A stretch of 11,149 nt of DNA from a virus (lineage: Duplodnaviria > Heunggongvirae > Uroviricota > Caudoviricetes). The stretch is from the IMG/VR virus record IMGVR_UViG_2923302340_000010, positions 1 through 11,149 of that record; one strand, given 5' to 3'. Position numbers and translations under genes: made by a program. Shown in pieces: positions 892 to 11,149 of the stretch (its first letter is position 1; the number at the start of each line of letters is the position of its first letter). Under the pieces are notes generated by a model. The model saw only the letters and a program-made list of their open reading frames with translations. It had not been told where the DNA came from and ran no database searches.

Positions 892-1218
892 TTAACTGAC
901 TATTAGTGCTTTAATACTCAGGTACGCAGAAAGAATAACACCAATAAAAGAAGGGTACAGCAGAATCCCAAACAAAAACTTCATGTACTTATGTTTTCCT
1001 ATCACTTCGTTAATAACAGATATTATACTCAACATACATAATGCAATACTTATAGTTGCAATAAATGCAATAGTAAGCAAGATGAAATATCTTACACCTG
1101 TTTGAGAAGATAAATTTGCAATTATACCTATCATAACGAGACTCTGTATAATCCCGAAAGACAAAGCACCAGAAGACTTTTCCACTATTTCACTAAATTT
1201 CTTCACAAAGTAAATCAT
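892..1218 (-). CDS. Small hydrophobic membrane protein, hypothetical (about 108 aa, predicted multi-pass)
   Basis: Strongly AT-rich ORF. ATG at 1218..1216 is preceded by AAGGTGA at 5-nt spacing (the track start at 1227 is GTG). The protein is dominated by I/L/F/V stretches consistent with about three transmembrane helices. TAA at 892..894. Confidence 0.55.
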   Translation of the reverse strand: MIYFVKKFSEIVEKSSGALSFGIIQSLVMIGIIANLSSQTGVRYFILLTIAFIATISIALCMLSIISVINEVIGKHKYMKFLFGILLYPSFIGVILSAYLSIKALIVS

Positions 1219-1295
1219 ATATATCACCTTTATATAACGCTATGCTAAGGTTTATTTATACGATATCCCCAAATGGTATTCCATCACCGTACGGA

Positions 1296-2041: not shown

Positions 2042-2386
2042 TTAATTTTTGCCATCGTCATTTGTGACCGATGCACATGAGGGCATCCAGTCTTCTGAAT
2101 CCTCTGTCAGTATCACGTTTGAACGCAAGCCATGCTTCGTTTTCCGTTTCATATACTCCCTGCCGTATTCCGCCATTGCCCCTGGCATATCCTTACCGAA
2201 GCGTGTCAGTGTTACGGGCTTACCGAATCCGTGTGCCCTCATATACGCCAGATAGGCGTGATAGAGATACCTGCGCGGGCTGAACGGAATAATTTCAGCA
2301 TTACCCACTAACAGGCCATCGCACATTACCGACGACATGAGATAGCCGCAGAAGTCCACCAGCGAATCGCCCTCGCGTTTTATCAC
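2042..2386 (-). CDS. C-terminal fragment of the P4 alpha-like primase/helicase (putative origin-binding domain), split from the upstream ORF by an in-frame TAG
   Basis: Same reading frame as 2438..3841. The 17 codons between the TAG at 2438..2440 and the GTG at 2386 are open (read-through gives ...LLTRFSD*DEAKRLLYEQQKSEEALVIKREGDS...). The pattern YLYHAYLAYMRAHGFGKPVTLTRFGKDM resembles the conserved C-terminal region of P4-family primases. Weak RBS before the GTG. Confidence 0.6.
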   Translation of the reverse strand: MIKREGDSLVDFCGYLMSSVMCDGLLVGNAEIIPFSPRRYLYHAYLAYMRAHGFGKPVTLTRFGKDMPGAMAEYGREYMKRKTKHGLRSNVILTEDSEDWMPSCASVTNDDGKN

Positions 2387-2437
2387 CAGGGCTTCTTCTG
2401 ATTTCTGCTGCTCATATAGCAGGCGTTTAGCTTCGTC

Positions 2438-3841
2438 CTAGTCAGAAAAGCGTGTAAGCAGGTGGCGAATCACTACCGCCAGCTCTCCTTCTATTTTTTC
2501 AGCCAGCATAGGGTCACGTTCGTTCTCCGGTACAACTTCCGAAAAATTGAATATTACCCGACGACGTGATATCCCACCGCTGCGGTCACTGAATGACATG
2601 GCGTTATTGTTCACCGCCAGCACGACCGCCTGAATGCGTGTTGAGTAGGGGGCTTTATGTTTCGGGTCGATTGCCACCTTATCACCGCCTGTAATGGCCT
2701 TAATCCCTGCACCATCACCAGCGTAACGGGTCATATCCGGCATGATAATCAGCGAAAAGCCAACCACTAACGCACGTTCCCTGGCATCTTCCAGCGCCTT
2801 CATGCTTGCCGATACCGTGTTGGCCTTACCCGCCAGCATAGTGCAAATCTCCGCCATTACGCTTTTACCGCTTCCACCCGGCCCCGTTACCTCAAGAAAT
2901 AACTGCCAGTCGTACCGATTCGCCAGCACCATGAATAACGCCGCCAGTACGCGATCTGCCTTGCGGTCATTCTCAGCCACCGAACGGCGCAACCACTTCC
3001 AGAAATTCGGCGCATGTGTTGCCAGCGTTTCCCCCTCTGCTGGTGGGCTGAAAGGTAATTCACTGGCAATTAACAACCAGTCGTTTTTGTTATGCTCCCG
3101 AAAATTACCAGTTCTGGTATCAAATACCCCGTTACTGAATCCAATCAGGTTACGGGCTGTATTCCCCATTACGGGCAAACTTAACTTCATGGTATCGACC
3201 GCCGATTTGATGGCGTTCTGCGAATAGCTGATTTCCGCATCAATAAAAATCTGCGCCATAGTCCGCTGTAACTCTTTATCCTGTACCGGCTCCCATACAA
3301 CACCGTTGTAGTGGTGAACGGTGTCAGAATCCGCATTGATTGCCAGTTCACCGCCATAATGTGCCAGGAGAACTTCGCCGCGCTGGCTGGCTCCCATCTG
3401 ATTTAGTGCTGGCCTGGGTAGGTCAATATTTTTTGTGGCTAATTTCATCGCTGAAACTTCCCCACTCTCTGCCTGTTCGCGGATCCGTTGCAGGTAGTCG
3501 CGCCAGTTTTCCGGCTCCCGGTCGGTGATACCTTTGTATAATTTCGCGTCCTGTACGCCAGCCAGTGCCAGTTTTTCAGCGATAGCATTGATCTGGATTG
3601 GTTCGATCTCCCCCGCGAGATAGACACGCGCAAAGCGGCGTTCATCGTCGACAATGCGGATATTCGCCAGGTCTGCCAGTTGCTTTGGCCCCAGGTAAAC
3701 AGGTGGTACGTTATCGCCGTGTTTTCGTCCTTCGCTTTCAATCCAGTGTTGAGCATGGGCGTAAGCATCCGTCCCGGCAAAAATGATTACCTCAGTGAAT
3801 TTATCCTTCGGCTGATATTTCAAACTCGGTGCGTTTTTCAC
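2438..3841 (-). CDS. P4 alpha-like primase/helicase (D5/P4-family P-loop NTPase), truncated by an in-frame TAG at 2438..2440
   Basis: 467-aa ORF with Walker A motif GPGGSGKS. GTG start at 3841 is preceded by GGGAGGT and overlaps the stop of the upstream gene (GTGA). Together with 2042..2386 it would make a roughly 600-aa protein. Confidence 0.85.
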   Translation of the reverse strand: MKNAPSLKYQPKDKFTEVIIFAGTDAYAHAQHWIESEGRKHGDNVPPVYLGPKQLADLANIRIVDDERRFARVYLAGEIEPIQINAIAEKLALAGVQDAKLYKGITDREPENWRDYLQRIREQAESGEVSAMKLATKNIDLPRPALNQMGASQRGEVLLAHYGGELAINADSDTVHHYNGVVWEPVQDKELQRTMAQIFIDAEISYSQNAIKSAVDTMKLSLPVMGNTARNLIGFSNGVFDTRTGNFREHNKNDWLLIASELPFSPPAEGETLATHAPNFWKWLRRSVAENDRKADRVLAALFMVLANRYDWQLFLEVTGPGGSGKSVMAEICTMLAGKANTVSASMKALEDARERALVVGFSLIIMPDMTRYAGDGAGIKAITGGDKVAIDPKHKAPYSTRIQAVVLAVNNNAMSFSDRSGGISRRRVIFNFSEVVPENERDPMLAEKIEGELAVVIRHLLTRFSD

Positions 3842-4132: not shown

Positions 4133-4333
4133 TTATTTTCCTGTCAGCAGTTCCGGTTTTATTTCCGCACGAATACAAAGTTCAGAAAAAAATTCAGGAG
4201 AACCAACAATCTCATTACTTTTCAGTCGGCATTGTGATTTCACTTTCCCTTTATCCAGGTAAACCAGTACGCGTCCGGTGAAATCATCTGGCACACTCAG
4301 GGTAATTGTCATTGTTGCTTGCTGATTATCCAT
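4133..4333 (-). CDS. Hypothetical protein (66 aa)
   Basis: ATG at 4333 preceded by a GGGGGTGA SD; overlaps the stop of the upstream gene by 8 nt; TAA at 4133..4135. Confidence 0.5.
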   Translation of the reverse strand: MDNQQATMTITLSVPDDFTGRVLVYLDKGKVKSQCRLKSNEIVGSPEFFSELCIRAEIKPELLTGK

Positions 4334-4691: not shown

Positions 4692-4908
4692 GGTGCACCT
4701 CCTGCACATCAGCCATGATAATTTTTCCGGCCTTATCCAGTGCCTGATCGGCTTTTAGCTGCACAAATGCTAAATAATGGGAGATGCATTCTGATTCTCT
4801 GGCTGCGTGTTTATGCGCCACACCAGCGATAGCAGAAATCTCAATAAGTGAATCCATCAGCGTTTTGATAGCGTCTACCGCTGCATCAGGCCATGTTGCA
4901 TTACACAT
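4684..4908 (-). CDS. Hypothetical protein (74 aa)
   Basis: ATG at 4908 preceded by CAGGAGGTGG; overlaps the stop of the upstream gene (ATGTGTAA). Confidence 0.5.
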   Translation of the reverse strand: MCNATWPDAAVDAIKTLMDSLIEISAIAGVAHKHAARESECISHYLAFVQLKADQALDKAGKIIMADVQEVHHA

Positions 4909-5266
4909 GTTCCACCTCCTGGCGAATGCGGGCAGCGAATACCATCACGCAGCCATCAGGAGATTGCTGGCGTGCTTCCTGTTCGCTGGTGGCCTCGATG
5001 TGAATTACACGCGGTTGTGCTGTGCTCAGGGCGATAAAACGCCATATAAAATTGTTTTCGCATTTCTGAATAAACAGCGTGTTTTCTTCGCGCCCTTTCC
5101 ATGTTGCCGAGATATAGCCCATATCATTGAGCATCTTGCAGGCATCCACCAGCGTATCAGCGGCTACGTGTACAGTGTTTTTACCGTCAGCCATGCAATC
5201 ACGGTGCACCGCCAGGAAGGTGTATATAAATTTAGGGTGAGTTTGGGTATGCTGTATTCCAGCCAT
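4901..5266 (-). CDS. Hypothetical protein (121 aa), first gene of the operon leading into the primase
   Basis: Internal ATG at 5266..5264 of the 384-aa track ORF, preceded by GAGGT at about 8 nt. Upstream of it the frame yields low-complexity Ser/Cys-rich sequence and overlaps the plus-strand regulator gene, so the long ORF is an artefact. Confidence 0.55.
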   Translation of the reverse strand: MAGIQHTQTHPKFIYTFLAVHRDCMADGKNTVHVAADTLVDACKMLNDMGYISATWKGREENTLFIQKCENNFIWRFIALSTAQPRVIHIEATSEQEARQQSPDGCVMVFAARIRQEVEHV

Positions 5267-5353
5267 AATCGTTACCTCATTTAACGGTTTGGTTAGAAGC
5301 CCGGTTAGTGTTCGCGCACTGCCGGGTTTCGTCGTTTTTATGAATCGCTCATT

Positions 5354-5455
5354 GTGAGATACATAGCGACCTCCATGTGAGATACACATTATATTGTGGT
5401 GATATACATTGCAAGTGTTTTTATATCTCACTTTTGTGTATAGTGATATACACAT
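5354..5455. promoter_or_regulatory. Phased operator-like repeat array GTGA(G/T)ATACA(CA)T in the divergent intergenic region
   Basis: Direct copies at 5354..5364, 5377..5389, 5399..5409 and 5443..5455, plus an inverted copy ATATCTCAC at 5423..5431, spaced about 22-23 bp apart (two helical turns). A possible extended -10 (TGTGTATAGT, about 5435..5444) faces the plus-strand gene. Confidence 0.5.
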
Positions 5456-5474
5456 AACAAATTGGTGATTAACT

Positions 5475-5777
5475 ATGTCTGTATACAAAAATGCAAAATC
5501 GCAAATGACAACGATCAGGGTTCCCCACGATGTTATGGAGGGCATGGAATCCGTAAAACTGGACGGCGAAAGCAACGCCGGATTCATAGTAACCGCCATG
5601 CGCGGTGAGATCGCTCGCCGCCAGGCAGAAGGAAGAGGAGAAAATCCCCTGGTTTCTTCGCTCGATGCACTGGCGCAGGTGGAAAAAATCGGTGTCAAAG
5701 CTGCCGAGGAGATCGGGCAACTCGTCACCGTCGCGCGTGAAGAACTCCAGCGCCGCAAGGCCAAAGAACAGGAGTAG
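5475..5777 (+). CDS. Small DNA-binding regulator, putative ribbon-helix-helix (CopG/Arc-like) repressor (100 aa)
   Basis: ATG at 5475 with GGTGA 6 nt upstream; TAG at 5775..5777. TTIRVPHDV (beta-strand), then a helix, a NAG turn and a second helix (FIVTAMRGEIARR) fit the RHH pattern; charged helical C-terminus. It is the only convincing plus-strand gene in the element and is divergent from the small-gene operon. Confidence 0.5.
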   Translation: MSVYKNAKSQMTTIRVPHDVMEGMESVKLDGESNAGFIVTAMRGEIARRQAEGRGENPLVSSLDALAQVEKIGVKAAEEIGQLVTVAREELQRRKAKEQE

Positions 5778-6047
5778 TTGATCAGCACCGGGCGACCAGA
5801 AAAAATCGCATCAGTCGCACCACCAGCAAAATTTTTTGCTTTCCGGACAGCGTGACCAACGACATTTTGCAGCAAAATATTCTGCATTTCTGGCGTGCTG
5901 TAGTAACGGTGATCAGCGCCTTCACTCTGTGCGACCACAACGCTATAATCTGCCTCGTAGACAGTAAGCAATATGGCGCAGTAGGCTATTCGTTCACAAA
6001 GGCGCTCCGGCAACGGGGCGCTTTCTCTTTTTGTAACGGTCAGAGCG

Positions 6048-6896
6048 TTACACATGGCTGTTTTCCTCCATGCGGCGGGCTAACCAACGCTGCGAAAGAC
6101 GAATTAATTCAGCTTTCCGCTGGTGGTAGTCCTGGCCTAACTCAATCAGCGTGATATTGCTCTGCTCAAGGTAAGAAAGGTGCTCAAGCTGCAACGTGCT
6201 CATGTGGTCGCGTGGTTCGCCTGTGATGCCGTTCGCCAGTGCCCACTGTTTTGCAGTCATGCCACCCAGCACGATACGCGCCAGCATATTGGCTTCCGTG
6301 GTGTAGTGGTGCTGGAACGTGCTTTTACCCAGTTCAGCCCGGTACGCCTCCAGCGCGGCGCACATCGGCTTAAAGTAGCTGGCAACGGTGATACGGGCTT
6401 TCAGTTCCCGGCGTAACGCTGCGGAACGCACTGGCGCCACCTTGTGTAGATCCTCCTCGCATTTGATGAAATACTGGCGAACGGCGCGGCCTTGTTCGGT
6501 GCGTTCGACCATCGCCAGTTCTTTCGCCATGTTCGTGGAGATCAAATAGTCTTCACTGCGGCGATCACCGCCGCGCTTTGTTGTCCAATCAGAATCAAAC
6601 TGTTCAATATTTACACTTTGGTTCCCCCGTTTCGGGGAATCAAAGTACAAATTTTCTACAACTTCAAAATCCACGCCATTTTTAAATCCGTACTCATCAA
6701 TACGTCCTTTAATCCAGGTAGTGAAATCACGGCCTACCCCGAGCGCCTTATACAACGCTCTGGCGCTAACAATATTGGTTTCACGCCCGCCAATAACGCC
6801 GGAAATAACCGGGATAATTTCGCCAAAATTTTGCAGATTCTGGTTTTCAGGCCGAACGAAGCCCTGCCCCTGTACGGGCGTTTTTGGAAATTTCAT
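6048..6896 (-). CDS. Phage antirepressor-like protein with N-terminal AntA/Bro-N-type domain (282 aa)
   Basis: ATG at 6896 preceded by AGGAG; TAA at 6048..6050. ALYKALGVGRDFTTWIKGRIDEYGF and NMAKELAMVERTEQGRAVRQYFIKCEE match the conserved blocks of phage Ant/Bro-N antirepressor N-domains as I recall them. Confidence 0.7.
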   Translation of the reverse strand: MKFPKTPVQGQGFVRPENQNLQNFGEIIPVISGVIGGRETNIVSARALYKALGVGRDFTTWIKGRIDEYGFKNGVDFEVVENLYFDSPKRGNQSVNIEQFDSDWTTKRGGDRRSEDYLISTNMAKELAMVERTEQGRAVRQYFIKCEEDLHKVAPVRSAALRRELKARITVASYFKPMCAALEAYRAELGKSTFQHHYTTEANMLARIVLGGMTAKQWALANGITGEPRDHMSTLQLEHLSYLEQSNITLIELGQDYHQRKAELIRLSQRWLARRMEENSHV

Positions 6897-6973: not shown

Positions 6974-7171
6974 TCAGGTAGCTGTTCCGCGTGATTCTGC
7001 AATACGCTGATTAATCCACTCGTCAATTTCACTCTCAACGAAAGCAATCGCTCGCGAGCCAATTTTAACTGATGCAGGAAATTTACCTTGCCCCATAAGG
7101 CGATAAATCCATGCCTTGCTATATCCAGTTCTACGCTGAACTTCTGTTAAACGAATAAGCGTATTTGACAT
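6974..7171 (-). CDS. alpA: AlpA-family phage regulatory protein (MerR-like HTH; excisionase/transcriptional activator type, 65 aa)
   Basis: LTEVQRRTGYSKAWIYRLMGQGKFP...ESEIDEWINQR matches the AlpA/Vis family pattern (HTH followed by EIDEW). ATG at 7171 preceded by GAGGT; TGA at 6974..6976. Confidence 0.85.
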   Translation of the reverse strand: MSNTLIRLTEVQRRTGYSKAWIYRLMGQGKFPASVKIGSRAIAFVESEIDEWINQRIAESRGTAT

Positions 7172-7240
7172 ATATTTACCTCATAACGTCTACTCAATTT
7201 GACGAGGTAATCATGGCACAGAAATAACGAATATTTTCAT

Positions 7241-7385
7241 ACCCTCAGGCCTAATGGTTACCGGAAGGAAATTAACCCTAAGGGTGATGGTAATCGGGAG
7301 GAAATCTACCCTAAGGGTGATGGTAAAATTGACGGGGAAGATAAAAAAATACCCTCAGGGTAACAGTAAATCACCCTCAGGGTAT
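7241..7385. promoter_or_regulatory. Array of palindromic ACCCT(A/C)AGGGT sites upstream of alpA, including a 31-bp tandem duplication
   Basis: Sites at 7275..7285, 7308..7318, 7351..7361 and 7373..7383, with a half-site at 7241..7249. Nearly identical 31-bp units at 7263..7293 and 7296..7326 (GGA(A/G)GGAAAT(T/C)(A/T)ACCCTAAGGGTGATGGTAA). TACCCTcAGGGTA at 7350..7362 is a perfect 13-bp palindrome. Confidence 0.5.
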
Positions 7386-7398
7386 GCGGTATGGTGCG

Positions 7399-8196
7399 TT
7401 AATCCGGCTTTGCGTTCTTTTGGCTGTTGTCTCGGTTAATAGGGCAGGCAGTCCTCTCTATGAGCGTTGCAAGAGCATTACTTGCCCCCCACTGCTTAAG
7501 CTCCCTGGTTATCGCTTCTTGATTTCCCCTGGTGGCAAAATCATTTTCTGGATCGTAATTGGCCCACTCTCTGTTTCTAATCTCAATAGCCTTAGCTAAT
7601 GGGTCTTTATCCCAGTATTTATATAAGTGTATCGGGCGCTCTTGCTCTAACTGCTCTATCCTTGCCCTTAACTCTGCGTTTTCTTTTTCCAGCATTGCGA
7701 TTTGGGATAATAAATCATCCTCTGTACGCAACTCTTTCTTTTCAATATCGCGTCCTTGTGCCTCGTCATTTTCAGAAGAGTTAGCGCCTTCCAGCTTCGT
7801 TAACGCGTCAAGGACATCGGGAAAAATTGCGAAAATTTCACCCCTTATAAATCCAATGTTCTCAAATTCGGGATCTTCCCAATAACCGGACACCAGAAAA
7901 CCATTTTCATCCCTCTCACCAGGTAAACAACCACGTTTCCGAACCGCATTCAGATTTCTATAAAGAACATCATAATCAAATTCATCCCGATACGGGTTAC
8001 AAAAAGATTCCAACAGCTTAAATTCATTTACTGTGTACAGGCGGATATGTTCTCCGTTTATTCTCCTGAGTATCCAAGTTATGACATCTGAAACATCATA
8101 ATCATCACCAGCGACCTTAAGCACGACCTCAAGAAATTCACGTAAAGAAATAAAATCTTTTTTGTATTCGTTTAATTCGGCATGAATATCAATCAT
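7399..8196 (-). CDS. Hypothetical acidic protein (about 265 aa) with central coiled-coil; AT-rich orphan gene between int and alpA
   Basis: ATG at 8196 preceded by GAGGTG (the track start at 8202 is GTG); TAA at 7399..7401. Markedly lower GC than its neighbours. Coiled-coil-like segment LLSQIAMLEKENAELRARIEQLEQE. No catalytic motif recognised. Confidence 0.7.
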   Translation of the reverse strand: MIDIHAELNEYKKDFISLREFLEVVLKVAGDDYDVSDVITWILRRINGEHIRLYTVNEFKLLESFCNPYRDEFDYDVLYRNLNAVRKRGCLPGERDENGFLVSGYWEDPEFENIGFIRGEIFAIFPDVLDALTKLEGANSSENDEAQGRDIEKKELRTEDDLLSQIAMLEKENAELRARIEQLEQERPIHLYKYWDKDPLAKAIEIRNREWANYDPENDFATRGNQEAITRELKQWGASNALATLIERTACPINRDNSQKNAKPD

Positions 8197-8324
8197 ACGC
8201 ACACCTCAGCGTCCTCTACTGTAGTGGCTGTACCAGTCCGTCGAGGTGTACGGATTTTCGGGAGCGACCCTAGACACAGCCTTTTCTTTCGTCGCTCAAA
8301 GTCTACTACTGTATACTCAACCAG

Positions 8325-9539
8325 TCACCCGCATTTTCCGAACTCACCATGCACCACATTTCCGCCATGCTCGAGCGAATCCATATAGTCGGCATACCAC
8401 TGGAGCATCTCCCGGCGACCATCCAGATATTGCGCATGGTTGTATGTGCCACGAATTGAGTTTTTATCGACGTGTGCAAGCTGTGTCTCTATCCACGCGG
8501 TGTTATAGCCCTGCTCATGCAAAATGGTGCTCATGGTGTGCCGGAATCCATGACCAGTAACCTTTCCGTTATAGCCGATGCGTTTAAATACTTGGTTTAT
8601 GCTAGCCTCGCTCATTGTTTTCCTTGGATCATTACGGCCGGGAAACATAAGCGGATAATTGCCAGTTAATTCTTTAATCTGCCCAATAAGCGAAAGAGCC
8701 TGCTTAGACAAAGGCACCACATGAGGGCGACGCATTTTCATCCGTGAAGCAGGTATCTCCCAGATAGCCTTGTTGAGATCGATTTCATCCCATAATGCAC
8801 CGCGCAGTTCGCCAGTCCGCAAACCGGTGATAATCAGTAGACGAGCCGCCATAACAACCAATGCACTTCCTGAGTAACTGGACAATGCCTTGAAAAAATC
8901 AGGTAATTCTTTGGCTGTGAGGAAAGGATAATGATTAGATTCATGACCTTGCATCGCGCTGGTGAGATCCGGTGCAGGGTTATACTCAGCACGTCCAGTG
9001 ACAATTGCATAGCGGAAAACCTCCCCGCATCGCTGCCTCACTTTTTTGGCTTTTTCGGTAGCACCGCGCCCCTCGATGCGCCGCAGCACATTCAGCAGTT
9101 CAAGTGGTTTGATTTCGGCGATTGGTTTTTTGCCAATGTAAGGGAACACATCTTTGTTGAAGGCTTCGAGGATGTCTGAAGCATAACCAGCAGACCATTT
9201 TTTTAATTTGCTGCTGTGCCACTCAAGGGCAATATCTTTGAAGGTGTTGTTTAACTGCGTTTCCCGGGCAATCTTTTCCTCTCGTTTCGCTTCCATCGGA
9301 TCGATACCCCCAGCGATACCCCTTTTAGCTTCTTCACGTTTTGCACGAGCATCAGCCAAGGTAACTTCAGGATACACACCTAGTGCTAACAGCTTCTCTT
9401 TACCAGCTACACGATACTTGAAGCGCCAATATTTTCCTCCACTAGGTTTTACCAAGAGATACAGACCGCCACCATCAGCCAGCTTGTAAGCCTTCTCTTT
9501 TGGCTTGGCAGTGTCTATTTGACGGGCATTGAGTTTCAC
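8325..9539 (-). CDS. int: P4-type tyrosine site-specific integrase (404 aa)
   Basis: N-terminal arm-binding-type region (LNARQIDTAKPKEK...GGLYLLVKPSGGKYWRFKYR), catalytic R in GLRTGELRG, H-x-x-R in HGFRHT, and a C-terminal Tyr in RGTYNH. GTG start at 9539 preceded by GGAGGT. Lies directly beside the tRNA 3' end. Confidence 0.95.
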   Translation of the reverse strand: MKLNARQIDTAKPKEKAYKLADGGGLYLLVKPSGGKYWRFKYRVAGKEKLLALGVYPEVTLADARAKREEAKRGIAGGIDPMEAKREEKIARETQLNNTFKDIALEWHSSKLKKWSAGYASDILEAFNKDVFPYIGKKPIAEIKPLELLNVLRRIEGRGATEKAKKVRQRCGEVFRYAIVTGRAEYNPAPDLTSAMQGHESNHYPFLTAKELPDFFKALSSYSGSALVVMAARLLIITGLRTGELRGALWDEIDLNKAIWEIPASRMKMRRPHVVPLSKQALSLIGQIKELTGNYPLMFPGRNDPRKTMSEASINQVFKRIGYNGKVTGHGFRHTMSTILHEQGYNTAWIETQLAHVDKNSIRGTYNHAQYLDGRREMLQWYADYMDSLEHGGNVVHGEFGKCG

Positions 9540-9705: not shown

Positions 9706-9781
9706 TGGTGCCGATAATAGGAGTCGAACCTACGACCTTCGCATTACGAATGCGCTGCTCTACCAACTGAGCTATATCGGC
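9706..9781 (-). tRNA. thrW: tRNA-Thr (anticodon CGU)
   Basis: The reverse complement reads GCCGATATAGCTCAGTTGGTAGAGCAGCGCATTCGTAATGCGAAGGTCGTAGGTTCGACTCCTATTATCGGCACCA: 76 nt, cloverleaf-compatible, anticodon loop TTCGTAA, encoded CCA. Position downstream of proA matches the E. coli proA-thrW arrangement. Confidence 0.95.
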
Positions 9782-9895: not shown

Positions 9896-11149
9896 TTACG
9901 CACGAATGGTGTAATCACCAATGCCGATCCACTTGTAAGTGGTCAGCGCTTCCAGCCCCATTGGGCCACGCGCGTGGAGTTTTTGTGTGCTTACCGCCAC
10001 TTCCGCGCCCAGTCCAAACTGGCCGCCGTCGGTAAAACGCGTAGAGGCGTTAACGTAAACAGAGGACGAATCCACTTCGTTAACAAAACGCTGGGCGTTG
10101 CGCATATCGCGGGTCAGGATCGCATCGGAGTGTTGTGTGCCGTGTTCACGAATATGGGCGATGGCATCGTCAAGATCGCTGACGATTTTAACGTTCAAAT
10201 CTAATGACAGAAACTCATCGTCATACTCTTCGGCTTTAACAGCCACCACCTTCGCGGGGCCTGCCTGCAACTGCGCCAGCGCAGCTACATCTGCGTGTAA
10301 TGTCACGCTGCTTTCCGCCATTTGCTTGCTTAATGCGGGCAGGAAGCTATCGGCGATGTTTTTATTTACCAGCAACGTTTCTACCGTATTACATGTGCTC
10401 GGACGCTGAGTTTTTGCGTTAACGATTACTTTCATGGCTTCAGCGATCTCTGCACTTTCATCAACGTAAATATGGCATACGCCTATACCGCCTGTGATCA
10501 CCGGGATTGTCGACTGTTCGCGGCACAGCTTATGCAGGCCAGCGCCACCACGCGGGATCAGCATGTCGATGTATTTATCCATACGCAGCATTTCACTTAC
10601 CAGCGCACGGTCAGGATTATCAATCGCCTGCACGGCACCCGCCGGTAAGCTGCAGGATTTCAGGGCGTCCTGAATCACCGCCACCGTTGCAGCGTTAGTG
10701 CGACAGGTTTCTTTGCCACCACGCAGGATCACTGCGTTACCGGTTTTCAGGCACAGGGAAGCAACATCAACCGTCACGTTCGGGCGCGCTTCATAAATCA
10801 CGCCAATCACCCCCAGCGGTACGCGACGACGCTCCAGACGCAGACCGCTGTCCAGTACGCCACCATCAATCACCTGCCCCACCGGATCGGCGAGGTTACA
10901 CACCTGACGCACATCATCGGCAATGCCTTTCAGCCGTGCGGGCGTCAGAGCCAGACGGTCAAGCATCGCTTCGCTAAGGCCATTGGCACGCGCGTCAGCA
11001 ACATCCTGCGCGTTAGCGTTGAGGATGATTTTGCTTTGTGCTTCCAGTTCATCGGCGATTTTTTCCAGCACGCGATTTTTTTCGCGGCTGGAGAGTTGCG
11101 CTAATTTATACGAGGCTTGCTTCGCGGCAATGCCCATTTGTTCCAGCAT
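9896..11149 (-). CDS. proA: Gamma-glutamyl phosphate reductase (glutamate-5-semialdehyde dehydrogenase)
   Basis: Full 417-aa ORF: ATG at the window end ([19 protein letters not shown]...), TAA at 9896..9898; aldehyde-dehydrogenase-like throughout; lies beside the tRNA-Thr gene as in enterobacterial chromosomes. Confidence 0.97.

What the first reader, a model, noticed from the sequence alone, without database searches (positions are those of the whole stretch)
7399..8196. AT-rich orphan gene between integrase and alpA, a candidate accessory or anti-phage cargo gene
This 265-aa acidic, coiled-coil-containing protein has clearly lower GC than the flanking int and alpA genes and no recognisable domain. 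It occupies an int-proximal position where satellites and integrative elements commonly carry variable cargo. Its function is unknown.
Basis: inference. Interest (0 to 1): 0.55.

Follow-up and report, generated by a model that had tools for sequence, protein, structure and literature searches.

The report
Likely regulator gene guarding satellite switch
The unannotated gene between the integrase and alpA of this E. coli phage satellite is most likely not defence cargo but a modular DNA-binding regulator that sits with its own array of binding sites directly in front of alpA, the satellite's master switch.

Summary
The ORF is real: 7399-8196, minus strand, 265 aa, acidic, with a coiled coil and no match in Pfam, PHROGs, PADLOC or NCBIfam. 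It lies in a phage-inducible chromosomal island (PICI) inserted at thrW.

The "variable cargo / anti-phage" reading is only partly supported. The slot does vary between related islands. However, it nearly always holds exactly one same-strand gene of 150-345 aa.

The protein has three parts: a swappable N-terminal domain, a coiled coil, and a conserved C-terminal domain of about 70 aa. That C-terminal domain defines 115 clusters in 1.84 billion proteins and is always C-terminal.

The 227 bp between its stop codon and the alpA ATG hold five copies of the palindrome TACCCTnAGGGTA.

Across 80 species-level alpA loci the palindrome tracks the C-terminal domain (6/8 vs 1/72, p = 6e-7). It does not track integrase, AlpA or the N-terminal domain.

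Distant members keep the layout with co-varying sites (TACCGTnACGGTA, TACTATnATAGTA). A second slot family pairs a different C-terminal domain with CTTCCA arrays (p = 2e-8).

Best explanation: a dimeric DNA-binding regulator of the alpA promoter. Whether it represses or activates is unknown, and DNA binding is inferred, not shown. Fold searches found no known DNA-binding fold.

The parts
7399..8196 (-). Slot gene (265 aa plus TAA stop at 7399-7401). It starts at the ATG at 8196; an alternative GTG lies at 8202.
7792..8196 (-). Variable N-terminal domain (aa 1-135), 0.38 GC, with beta-alpha-alpha-beta-beta-alpha topology. It is the proposed input or sensor module.
   Evidence: AlphaFold pLDDT is about 90. 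Identity to other family members falls to 11-30% while the C-terminal domain stays at 44-69%. In other family members, the N-terminal domains are shared with proteins that carry a different C-terminal domain. No significant fold match was found.
7639..7791 (-). Acidic low-confidence linker (about aa 139-158) followed by a coiled coil (about aa 159-186). It is the presumed dimerisation element.
7402..7638 (-). Conserved C-terminal domain (aa 187-265). Consensus: ERPIxLxxY..DPLxxAIxIRNxEWxNYDP....TR.NQ.AI..EL...G.S...A.AIE.VACPI.R. Four short helices, mildly basic (pI 8.1). It is the proposed DNA-binding module.
7372..7384 (.). Operator-like palindrome 1: TACCCTGAGGGTG on the minus strand.
7350..7362 (.). 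Operator-like palindrome 2: TACCCTGAGGGTA, followed by T7. It was also flagged as a weak terminator-like hairpin.
7307..7319 (.). Operator-like palindrome 3: CACCCTTAGGGTA.
7274..7286 (.). Operator-like palindrome 4: CACCCTTAGGGTT.
7239..7251 (.). Promoter-proximal imperfect site: GGCCTGAGGGTAT on the minus strand. Its AGGGTA half-site lies 74 nt upstream of the alpA ATG. That distance (-74/-73) is kept in six loci from four genera.
6974..7171 (-). alpA, the PICI master activator and the gene downstream of the operator array.
   Evidence: Pfam Phage_AlpA, E = 2.4e-19. Its role in PICIs is taken from PMC6092414.
8325..9539 (-). P4-type tyrosine integrase of the island (context).
9706..9781 (-). 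tRNA-Thr(CGT), thrW, the attachment site of the island (context).

Best explanation
The gene encodes a modular, probably dimeric, sequence-specific DNA-binding regulator of the island's master switch, alpA.

Proposed mechanism:
- The coiled coil pairs two copies of the conserved C-terminal domain.
- The pair recognises the 13-bp palindromes TACCCTnAGGGTA. Five copies lie in the 227 bp between the gene's stop codon and the alpA start.
- The proximal copy abuts the likely -35 region of the weak alpA promoter.
- Occupying this array sets whether alpA, and so excision, replication and transfer of the island, can fire.
- The swappable N-terminal domain is the input module. It most plausibly senses a helper-phage or cell-state signal, functionally like the Stl repressor of staphylococcal islands.

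What is shown: the domain architecture; the operator-like array; and its strict, co-varying association with the C-terminal domain and with alpA.

What is inferred: DNA binding itself; dimerisation; the sign of regulation (I favour repression or gatekeeping over activation, roughly 3:2); and the nature of the input.
For: 1. Site array. There are four exact ACCCTnAGGGT sites plus one imperfect site within 145 bp upstream of alpA. In the window as a whole, the <=1-mismatch search gave 5 matches (these four exact sites plus one unrelated site at 4293) against 0.2 expected, and no shuffle of 200 reached 5.

2. The motif follows the slot protein and nothing else.
- L003 has an integrase 100% identical to the window's, but a different slot protein and ACCGCAATTGCGGT sites.
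- L002 has an AlpA 97% identical (differences only at residues 2 and 4), but a different slot protein and no such motif.
- L004 and L007 have an identical AlpA and an integrase only 66% identical, with a homologous slot protein and the same motif.

3. Statistics across 80 species-level alpA loci. ACCCTnAGGGT is present in 6/8 loci whose slot protein has a strong C-terminal-domain match, against 1/72 others (Fisher p = 6e-7). TACCCT/AGGGTA half-sites number 1-6 in all 8, against a mean of 0.10 elsewhere.

4. Conservation pattern. The spacers, number and positions of the sites differ between genera while the sites themselves are kept. The proximal half-site stays at -74/-73 from the alpA ATG.

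5. Deep co-variation. Distant family members also sit just upstream of an AlpA-like gene. They carry TACCGTnACGGTA (x4, L092) or TACTATnATAGTA (x3, L093). This gives a general operator TAC-NN-T-N-A-NN-GTA.

6. The motif does not follow the N-terminal domain. N-terminal domains are shuffled between this family and a second slot family. That second family has a different C-terminal domain and is paired with CTTCCA arrays (8/12 vs 0/68, p = 2e-8).

7. Short natural versions of 143-153 aa keep only the coiled coil plus the C-terminal domain, and still have the array (L019, L032, L034).

8. The C-terminal domain is the only non-acidic part of the protein (pI 8.1 against 4.3-4.6).

9. Published context. 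alpA is the helper-induced master activator of Gram-negative PICIs. Whether they have a repressor, and what activates them, were stated as unknown (PMC6092414).
Against: - The C-terminal coding region and the intergenic array are physically adjacent. Part of the association could therefore be linkage rather than function.
- The prototype island EcCICFT073 has no slot gene (int-alpA gap 365 bp), yet it is helper-inducible. Such a regulator is therefore not required for PICI induction in general.
- Other slot families (DUF6387-type) show only a terminator-like hairpin in their intergenic region.
- A crude 7-mer repeat statistic was significant in only 23% of slot-bearing loci.
Confidence: 0.55

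Rival explanations
1. Anti-phage or accessory cargo. A single-gene defence or interference protein is carried in an integrase-proximal hotspot. The variable N-terminal domain senses phage components and the conserved C-terminal domain is the effector.
For: The slot content differs between otherwise near-identical islands. The N-terminal domain is AT-rich and hypervariable. PICIs are reported to carry immune systems at their 5' or 3' ends (PMC11364771 section 6, citing Fillol-Salom 2022).
Against: It matches no PADLOC model. The slot always holds one gene of similar size rather than variable cargo. The 70-aa all-helical C-terminal domain has no enzymatic or membrane features. This reading gives no reason for a conserved, co-varying palindrome array and fixed adjacency to alpA, even where no integrase is nearby. 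I could not read the 2022 Cell paper to see whether any slot gene was tested.
Confidence: 0.12
2. The palindromes are not bound by the slot protein. They would be RNA-level or other cis elements, such as terminators or attenuators insulating alpA from int read-through, or sites for a helper-phage or host factor. The slot protein would then have an unrelated function, and the association would reflect co-inheritance of adjacent DNA.
For: One copy followed by T7 scores as a weak terminator. In DUF6387-type loci the intergenic inverted repeat looks like a plain terminator. The C-terminal coding region and the array are contiguous. No DNA-binding fold was recognised.
Against: A 5-bp stem with a 1-nt loop cannot form a stable hairpin, and four of the five copies lack a T-run. 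The sites persist with changed number and spacing across genera, and co-vary with protein divergence (CC, CG, TA at positions 4-5) at 26-50% C-terminal-domain identity. The second family uses non-palindromic direct repeats (CTTCCA), which cannot act as hairpins.
Confidence: 0.15
3. An accessory factor for recombination or replication, such as a directionality or architectural protein. It would bind the repeats to help integrase or AlpA-mediated excision rather than transcription.
For: The gene lies in the 'integration zone' between int and alpA (PMC10111431). AlpA relatives act as excisionases (PMC11773190). The repeats resemble arrays of architectural-protein sites.
Against: The array is about 2.3 kb from the thrW crossover site, too far for arm-type sites. 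The family occurs next to alpA without an adjacent integrase. The motif is independent of integrase type. No cosN lies nearby, and the PICI origin lies downstream of pri (PMC6092414).
Confidence: 0.08

Closest known systems
Stl / Rpr master repressors of SaPIs and other Gram-positive PICIs
   Same: Both are encoded next to the integrase. Both are highly divergent between islands, and both are modular: a DNA-binding part plus a variable part that in Stl binds different helper-phage proteins. Both are positioned to control the promoter that launches the island's cycle. The proposed logic (sensor domain plus operator binding) is the same.
   Different: There is no sequence or detectable fold similarity. 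Stl has an N-terminal HTH and is transcribed divergently from the genes it represses. Here the conserved putative DNA-binding domain is C-terminal and of unknown fold. The gene is co-directional with alpA, and the target is the promoter of an activator. Repression and anti-repression are untested.
Immunity cassettes of lambdoid phages (cI/cro with OL/OR operators)
   Same: A regulator gene and its multiple palindromic operators travel together as one exchangeable cassette. This gives many specificity types in otherwise homologous genomes. Dimer recognition of palindromes of 13 bp or so is also shared.
   Different: The protein family is different. No LexA-like cleavage domain was seen in the family scans. 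There is a single array in front of one gene, and no evidence of a bistable switch.
The Gram-negative PICI 'integration zone' (int-alpA) and AlpA-dependent induction (EcCICFT073, EcCIEDL933, EcCIMP1)
   Same: The element type and gene order are the same: int, alpA, Bro/AntA zone, Icd-like, DUF4222, primase, ProQ, PerC. alpA is the helper-induced master activator.
   Different: EcCICFT073 has no gene between int and alpA. EcCIMP1 has an unrelated protein described as about one tenth the size of UvrB. The published model has no island-encoded factor acting on PalpA other than AlpA itself.
PICI and P4 defence hotspots (Fillol-Salom 2022; Rousset 2022; Tai systems of He 2024)
   Same: An integrase-proximal or otherwise fixed position whose content differs between related satellites.
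   Different: Those hotspots hold recognisable or experimentally shown immune systems of variable size. This slot holds one gene of constant size class with a cognate site array and no defence signature.
Pfam DUF6387
   Same: It occupies the same int-alpA slot in other Enterobacterales PICIs (L012, L013, L018, L024, L041, L042).
   Different: It is unrelated in sequence to the window protein, and its intergenic regions show only a terminator-like hairpin.

Membership tests
Gram-negative phage-inducible chromosomal island (the element that carries the gene) | P4-type tyrosine integrase next to a specific attachment site | tested here: met
   Integrase domains Arm-DNA-bind_3, Phage_int_M and Phage_integrase. 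tRNA-Thr(CGT) lies 166 bp away, next to proA.
Gram-negative phage-inducible chromosomal island (the element that carries the gene) | alpA downstream of int and co-oriented, followed by a primase (pri/rep) | tested here: met
   AlpA E = 2.4e-19; D5_N/DUF5906 primase. However, pri is split into two ORFs here (2438-3841 and 2042-2386), so this copy may be replication-defective.
Gram-negative phage-inducible chromosomal island (the element that carries the gene) | Induction and transfer by a helper phage | not testable with these tools
   This needs an experiment. It has been shown only for relatives (PMC6092414, PMC11773190).
Known anti-phage defence systems (PADLOC-DB v2) | Significant match to a defence-protein model | tested here: not met
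   0 families at E <= 1.
Cargo hotspot of a satellite (variable accessory region) | Variable number and size of unrelated genes between conserved flanks | tested here: not met
   The content is variable. But in loci with an occupied slot it is a single same-strand ORF of about 150-345 aa within an 840-1430 bp int-alpA gap. Domains are shared between the slot families.
Stl-like master repressor of PICIs | Sequence-specific binding to operators at the promoter that launches the island cycle | tested here: inconclusive
   A cognate, co-varying palindrome array in front of alpA is shown. Binding itself is not shown.
Stl-like master repressor of PICIs | Recognisable HTH DNA-binding domain; divergent transcription from the repressed operon | tested here: not met
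   No HTH family match. Fold searches were not diagnostic. The gene is co-directional with alpA.
Stl-like master repressor of PICIs | Derepression by direct binding of a helper-phage protein | not testable with these tools
   The only indirect hint is the shuffled, hypervariable N-terminal domain.
Classical HTH transcription factors (Pfam HTH clan) | Profile or fold match to an HTH domain | tested here: inconclusive
Pfam DUF6387 (another occupant of the same slot) | Match to PF19924 | tested here: not met
   The window protein has no hit. DUF6387 is found only in other loci's slot proteins.

The most novel reading that the evidence does not exclude
The int-alpA slot of enterobacterial PICIs encodes a previously unrecognised, hypervariable class of island-specific master regulators. 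Each consists of shuffled N-terminal sensor domains fused to one of several novel C-terminal DNA-binding domains, and each travels with its own operator array in front of alpA. These would be the missing Gram-negative counterparts of Stl. They would couple alpA firing to particular helper phages and so set helper range and cross-immunity between islands.
Probability: 0.3. Interest if true: 0.8.

Novelty: new variant of a known kind. Interest (0 to 1): 0.6.

Why it matters
How helper phages switch on Gram-negative PICIs has been an open question since they were described. [quoted passage not shown]

A family of island-encoded proteins with their own operator arrays directly in front of alpA gives that question a concrete, testable handle. 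It names a candidate protein, a defined 13-bp site, natural domain swaps and natural 'minimal' versions.

It would also add at least two new DNA-binding domain families. It would explain why this position is so variable without invoking defence cargo. This matters for annotation pipelines that treat integrase-proximal orphans in satellites as candidate immune genes.

Tried and rejected
- Domain searches (Pfam, PHROGs, PADLOC, NCBIfam) returned only coiled-coil noise.
- A PDB profile search with the C-terminal domain gave nothing.
- Foldseek against PDB with the full model had no hit at E < 1.
- Scanning genome contigs with the C-terminal-domain alignment gave no confirmed locus. I used AlpA as the anchor instead.
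- tblastn against 50,697 phage records gave no match.
- cos-site idea (array = cosB): there is no cosN-like sequence in the window.
- Arm-type integrase sites: rejected on distance and on independence from integrase type.
- AlpA autoregulatory sites: rejected because L002 has an essentially identical AlpA but lacks the motif.
- A generic 7-mer repeat-enrichment test across all slot loci was weak (23% of loci significant). I therefore do not claim that every slot family is a regulator. DUF6387-type loci show only terminator-like hairpins.
- The key paper on PICI immune hotspots (Cell 2022, 10.1016/j.cell.2022.07.014) is not held. I could not check whether any gene of this slot was tested there.
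- No sigma-70 consensus promoter was found for alpA or the slot gene. My placement of the proximal site near -35 is an inference from conserved spacing only.

Full report
**1. What is in the window**

On the minus strand the window carries, in order:
- proA (9896-11149)
- tRNA-Thr(CGT), thrW (9706-9781)
- a P4-type tyrosine integrase (8325-9539)
- the ORF in question (7399-8196)
- alpA (6974-7171)
- an AntA/Bro-type gene (6048-6896)
- small ORFs including a DUF4222 gene
- a D5_N/DUF5906 primase
- a ProQ/FinO-like gene and a PerC-like gene

This is the gene order of Gram-negative phage-inducible chromosomal islands (PICIs), as described in PMC6092414 and PMC10111431. Near-identical copies are annotated the same way in E. 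coli chromosomes. The ORF is present in 187 of 5,426 complete E. coli genomes, always chromosomal and always called 'hypothetical protein'.

**2. Checking the observation**

The 265-aa ORF from the ATG at 8196 is real.
- It has a Shine-Dalgarno sequence, and its start matches all homologues.
- It has 43 homologues, all in Enterobacterales or metagenomes and all unannotated.
- AlphaFold models are confident for the N-terminal domain (pLDDT about 90) and for the coiled coil plus C-terminal part (mean 91.5).
- It is acidic (pI 4.7) and has a coiled coil at about aa 159-186.
- It matches nothing else in Pfam, PHROGs, PADLOC or NCBIfam.
- Its GC content (0.414; N-terminal domain 0.38) is below that of int (0.481) but not meaningfully below alpA (0.429).

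**3. Architecture of the protein**

Alignment of the homologues shows three parts:
- an N-terminal region that is nearly unalignable between subgroups
- a coiled coil
- a strongly conserved C-terminal domain of about 70 aa, with the consensus ERPIxLxxY..DPLxxAIxIRNxEWxNYDP....TR.NQ.AI..EL...G.S...A.AIE.VACPI.R

A profile of this domain finds 115 clusters (at 50% identity) among 1.84 billion proteins. The domain is always at the C-terminus of proteins of 64-515 aa with diverse N-termini.

Relative to the window protein, N-region identity drops to 11-30% while the C-terminal domain stays at 44-69%. Natural short forms of 143-153 aa keep only the coiled coil plus the C-terminal domain. The C-terminal domain is the only non-acidic part (pI 8.1).

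**4. The intergenic array**

The 227 bp between the stop codon (7399) and the alpA ATG (7171) contain four exact copies of ACCCTnAGGGT: 7275-85, 7308-18, 7351-61 and 7373-83. In extended form the site is TACCCTnAGGGTA. A fifth, imperfect copy lies at 7239-7251.

The <=1-mismatch search of the whole window gave 5 matches (the four exact copies plus one unrelated site at 4293) against 0.2 expected, and none of 200 shuffles reached 5.

**5. What the palindromes belong to**

Three natural 'swap' comparisons separate the candidates.
- L003 has an integrase 100% identical to the window's. Its slot protein is unrelated, and it has two ACCGCAATTGCGGT palindromes instead.
- L002 has an AlpA 97% identical, with differences only at residues 2 and 4. 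Its slot protein is of a different type and it has no ACCCTnAGGGT. Homology with the window resumes only about 30 bp upstream of the alpA ATG.
- L004 and L007 have an identical AlpA but an integrase only 66% identical. Their slot proteins are homologous to the window's and they carry the same motif.

I then fetched 80 alpA loci, one per species, from Enterobacterales genomes and scored them blindly.
- ACCCTnAGGGT (at most one mismatch) occurs in the 300 bp upstream of alpA in 6 of 8 loci whose slot ORF strongly matches the C-terminal domain. It occurs in 1 of 72 others (Fisher p = 6e-7).
- The hexamer half-sites TACCCT/AGGGTA occur 1-6 times in all 8, against a mean of 0.10 (maximum 1) elsewhere.
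- Between genera, the number, spacing and flanks of the sites change while the sites persist.
- The promoter-proximal AGGGTA stays at -74/-73 from the alpA ATG in E. coli, Salmonella, Pantoea and Kluyvera loci.

**6. Deep co-variation**

Two distant members identified by the profile also lie directly upstream of an AlpA-like gene, without an adjacent integrase.
- P0123 comes from a GC-rich metagenome contig. Its intergenic region has TACCGTGACGGTA, TACCGTCACGGTA and two one-mismatch copies.
- P0037 comes from an AT-rich organism. Its intergenic region has TACTATCATAGTA and related copies.
- The Salmonella member L008 has TACCGTGAGGGTA.

The family-wide site is therefore TAC-NN-T-N-A-NN-GTA, with positions 4-5 changing together with the protein. 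This is difficult to explain by linkage alone.

**7. A second, independent pair, and domain shuffling**

Twelve of the 80 loci carry slot proteins with a different conserved C-terminal domain (L011 type). Eight of these 12 have three or more CTTCCA repeats upstream of alpA, against 0 of 68 other loci (p = 2e-8). The remaining four have close variants (TTTCCA, CTTCTA).

N-terminal domains are shared across the two C-terminal-domain families. Examples are L008 with L056, L047 and L016 (E = 1e-11 to 1e-13), L015 and L039 with L011 and L074 (E = 1e-10 to 1e-15), and P0047 with L011 (E = 7e-12). In each case the DNA motif goes with the C-terminal domain.

The motif is therefore dissociated from integrase, from AlpA and from the N-terminal domain. 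It is associated only with the C-terminal domain.

**8. Interpretation**

The simplest reading is a dimeric, sequence-specific DNA-binding regulator. Its output module (coiled coil plus C-terminal domain) recognises an operator array in front of alpA. Its N-terminal module is an exchangeable input.

No sigma-70 consensus promoter is predicted for alpA. From conserved spacing I infer that the proximal site abuts the -35 region. That position is compatible with either repression or class-II-type activation.

I favour a gatekeeper or repressor role. The island must keep alpA silent until a helper phage is active. An array of five sites would also block read-through from int and the slot gene. This preference is inference.

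AlpA is the helper-induced, autoactivating master switch. The 2018 paper left open whether Gram-negative PICIs have a repressor and what the phage-dependent activator is (PMC6092414). Later papers that I could read add no island-encoded factor acting on PalpA.

**9. Limits**

- DNA binding is not shown.
- The prototype EcCICFT073 has no slot gene (365-bp gap), and most Xenorhabdus and Photorhabdus loci have none. This is an optional regulatory layer, not a universal one.
- Some slot families (DUF6387) show only a terminator-like hairpin, so I do not generalise to all occupants.
- The defence rival cannot be excluded without a phage challenge. I could not read the 2022 Cell paper on PICI immune regions.

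**10. Verdict**

The 'cargo / anti-phage' interpretation is weakly supported.

The better-supported explanation is an undescribed modular regulator with its cognate operators, controlling the island's master activator. I rate it a new variant of a known kind: an island or phage immunity-type regulator that is functionally Stl-like but built from unrecognised domains. My confidence in this explanation is moderate (0.55), and I score interest at 0.6.

Noticed in passing
window 2042-3841 (minus strand): The island's primase is split. ORF 2438-3841 (467 aa, D5_N plus DUF5906) is followed by ORF 2042-2386 (114 aa), which aligns to residues 482-587 of an intact 590-aa primase from L002. The near-identical copy in strain F9792 is annotated as a frameshifted pseudogene. 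This copy of the island may be replication-defective.
   Followed up: partly
window 892-1227 (minus strand): A very AT-rich region (window GC 0.31) holds an ORF for a 111-aa, strongly hydrophobic protein with no Pfam or PADLOC hit. It lies between the primase and the ProQ-like gene. He et al. 2024 place a PICI accessory or immune hotspot next to pri, so this is a more typical cargo candidate than the gene under study.
   Followed up: partly
L091 11161-11525 (EcCICFT073, int-alpA gap): The prototype island has no slot gene. Its 365-bp int-alpA gap carries its own repeats: about six copies of (A/G)ACAAC just after int, and a CACAA/ACACAA cluster just before alpA. Their binding partner is unknown.
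   Followed up: no
L012, L013, L018, L024, L041, L042 (slot ORFs upstream of alpA at about 3001): In several Enterobacterales PICIs the same int-alpA slot is occupied by members of Pfam DUF6387 (E down to 6e-38). This links that uncharacterised family to phage satellites.
   Followed up: partly
L003 10273-10386; L044, L026, L014/L030/L045 intergenic regions upstream of alpA: Other slot families come with their own perfect palindromes: TACCGCAATTGCGGTA x2, ATATAAACCGGTTTATAT x2, TTGCATGCAA x2, and long inverted repeats. The L002/L010/L022/L033 group shares a weak C-terminal-domain match with the window family. It carries GGTGGGTA/TACCCACC sites that share the GGGTA core with the window's motif.
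   Followed up: partly
window 4901-6055 (minus) and 5475-5777 (plus): The 384-aa minus-strand ORF has no counterpart in the annotation of the near-identical island (L001) and is probably spurious. The region instead holds a short plus-strand ORF (100 aa) at the position where relatives encode a divergently transcribed YlcI/YnfO-family protein next to an Icd-like gene. The window's ORF itself had no Pfam hit.
   Followed up: no
L003 12988-21346: In strain ZF8-1 a P22-like prophage lies directly beside the thrW island. Its features include a tail needle knob, ejection proteins and a head-binding tailspike. This recalls the EcCIMP1/Kapi1 helper pairing reported in PMC11773190.
   Followed up: no
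window 8197-8324: The 128-bp gap between int and the slot gene contains an inverted repeat (GAGCGAC ... GTCGCTC, 21-nt loop) and no consensus promoter. The slot gene may be co-transcribed with int.
   Followed up: no
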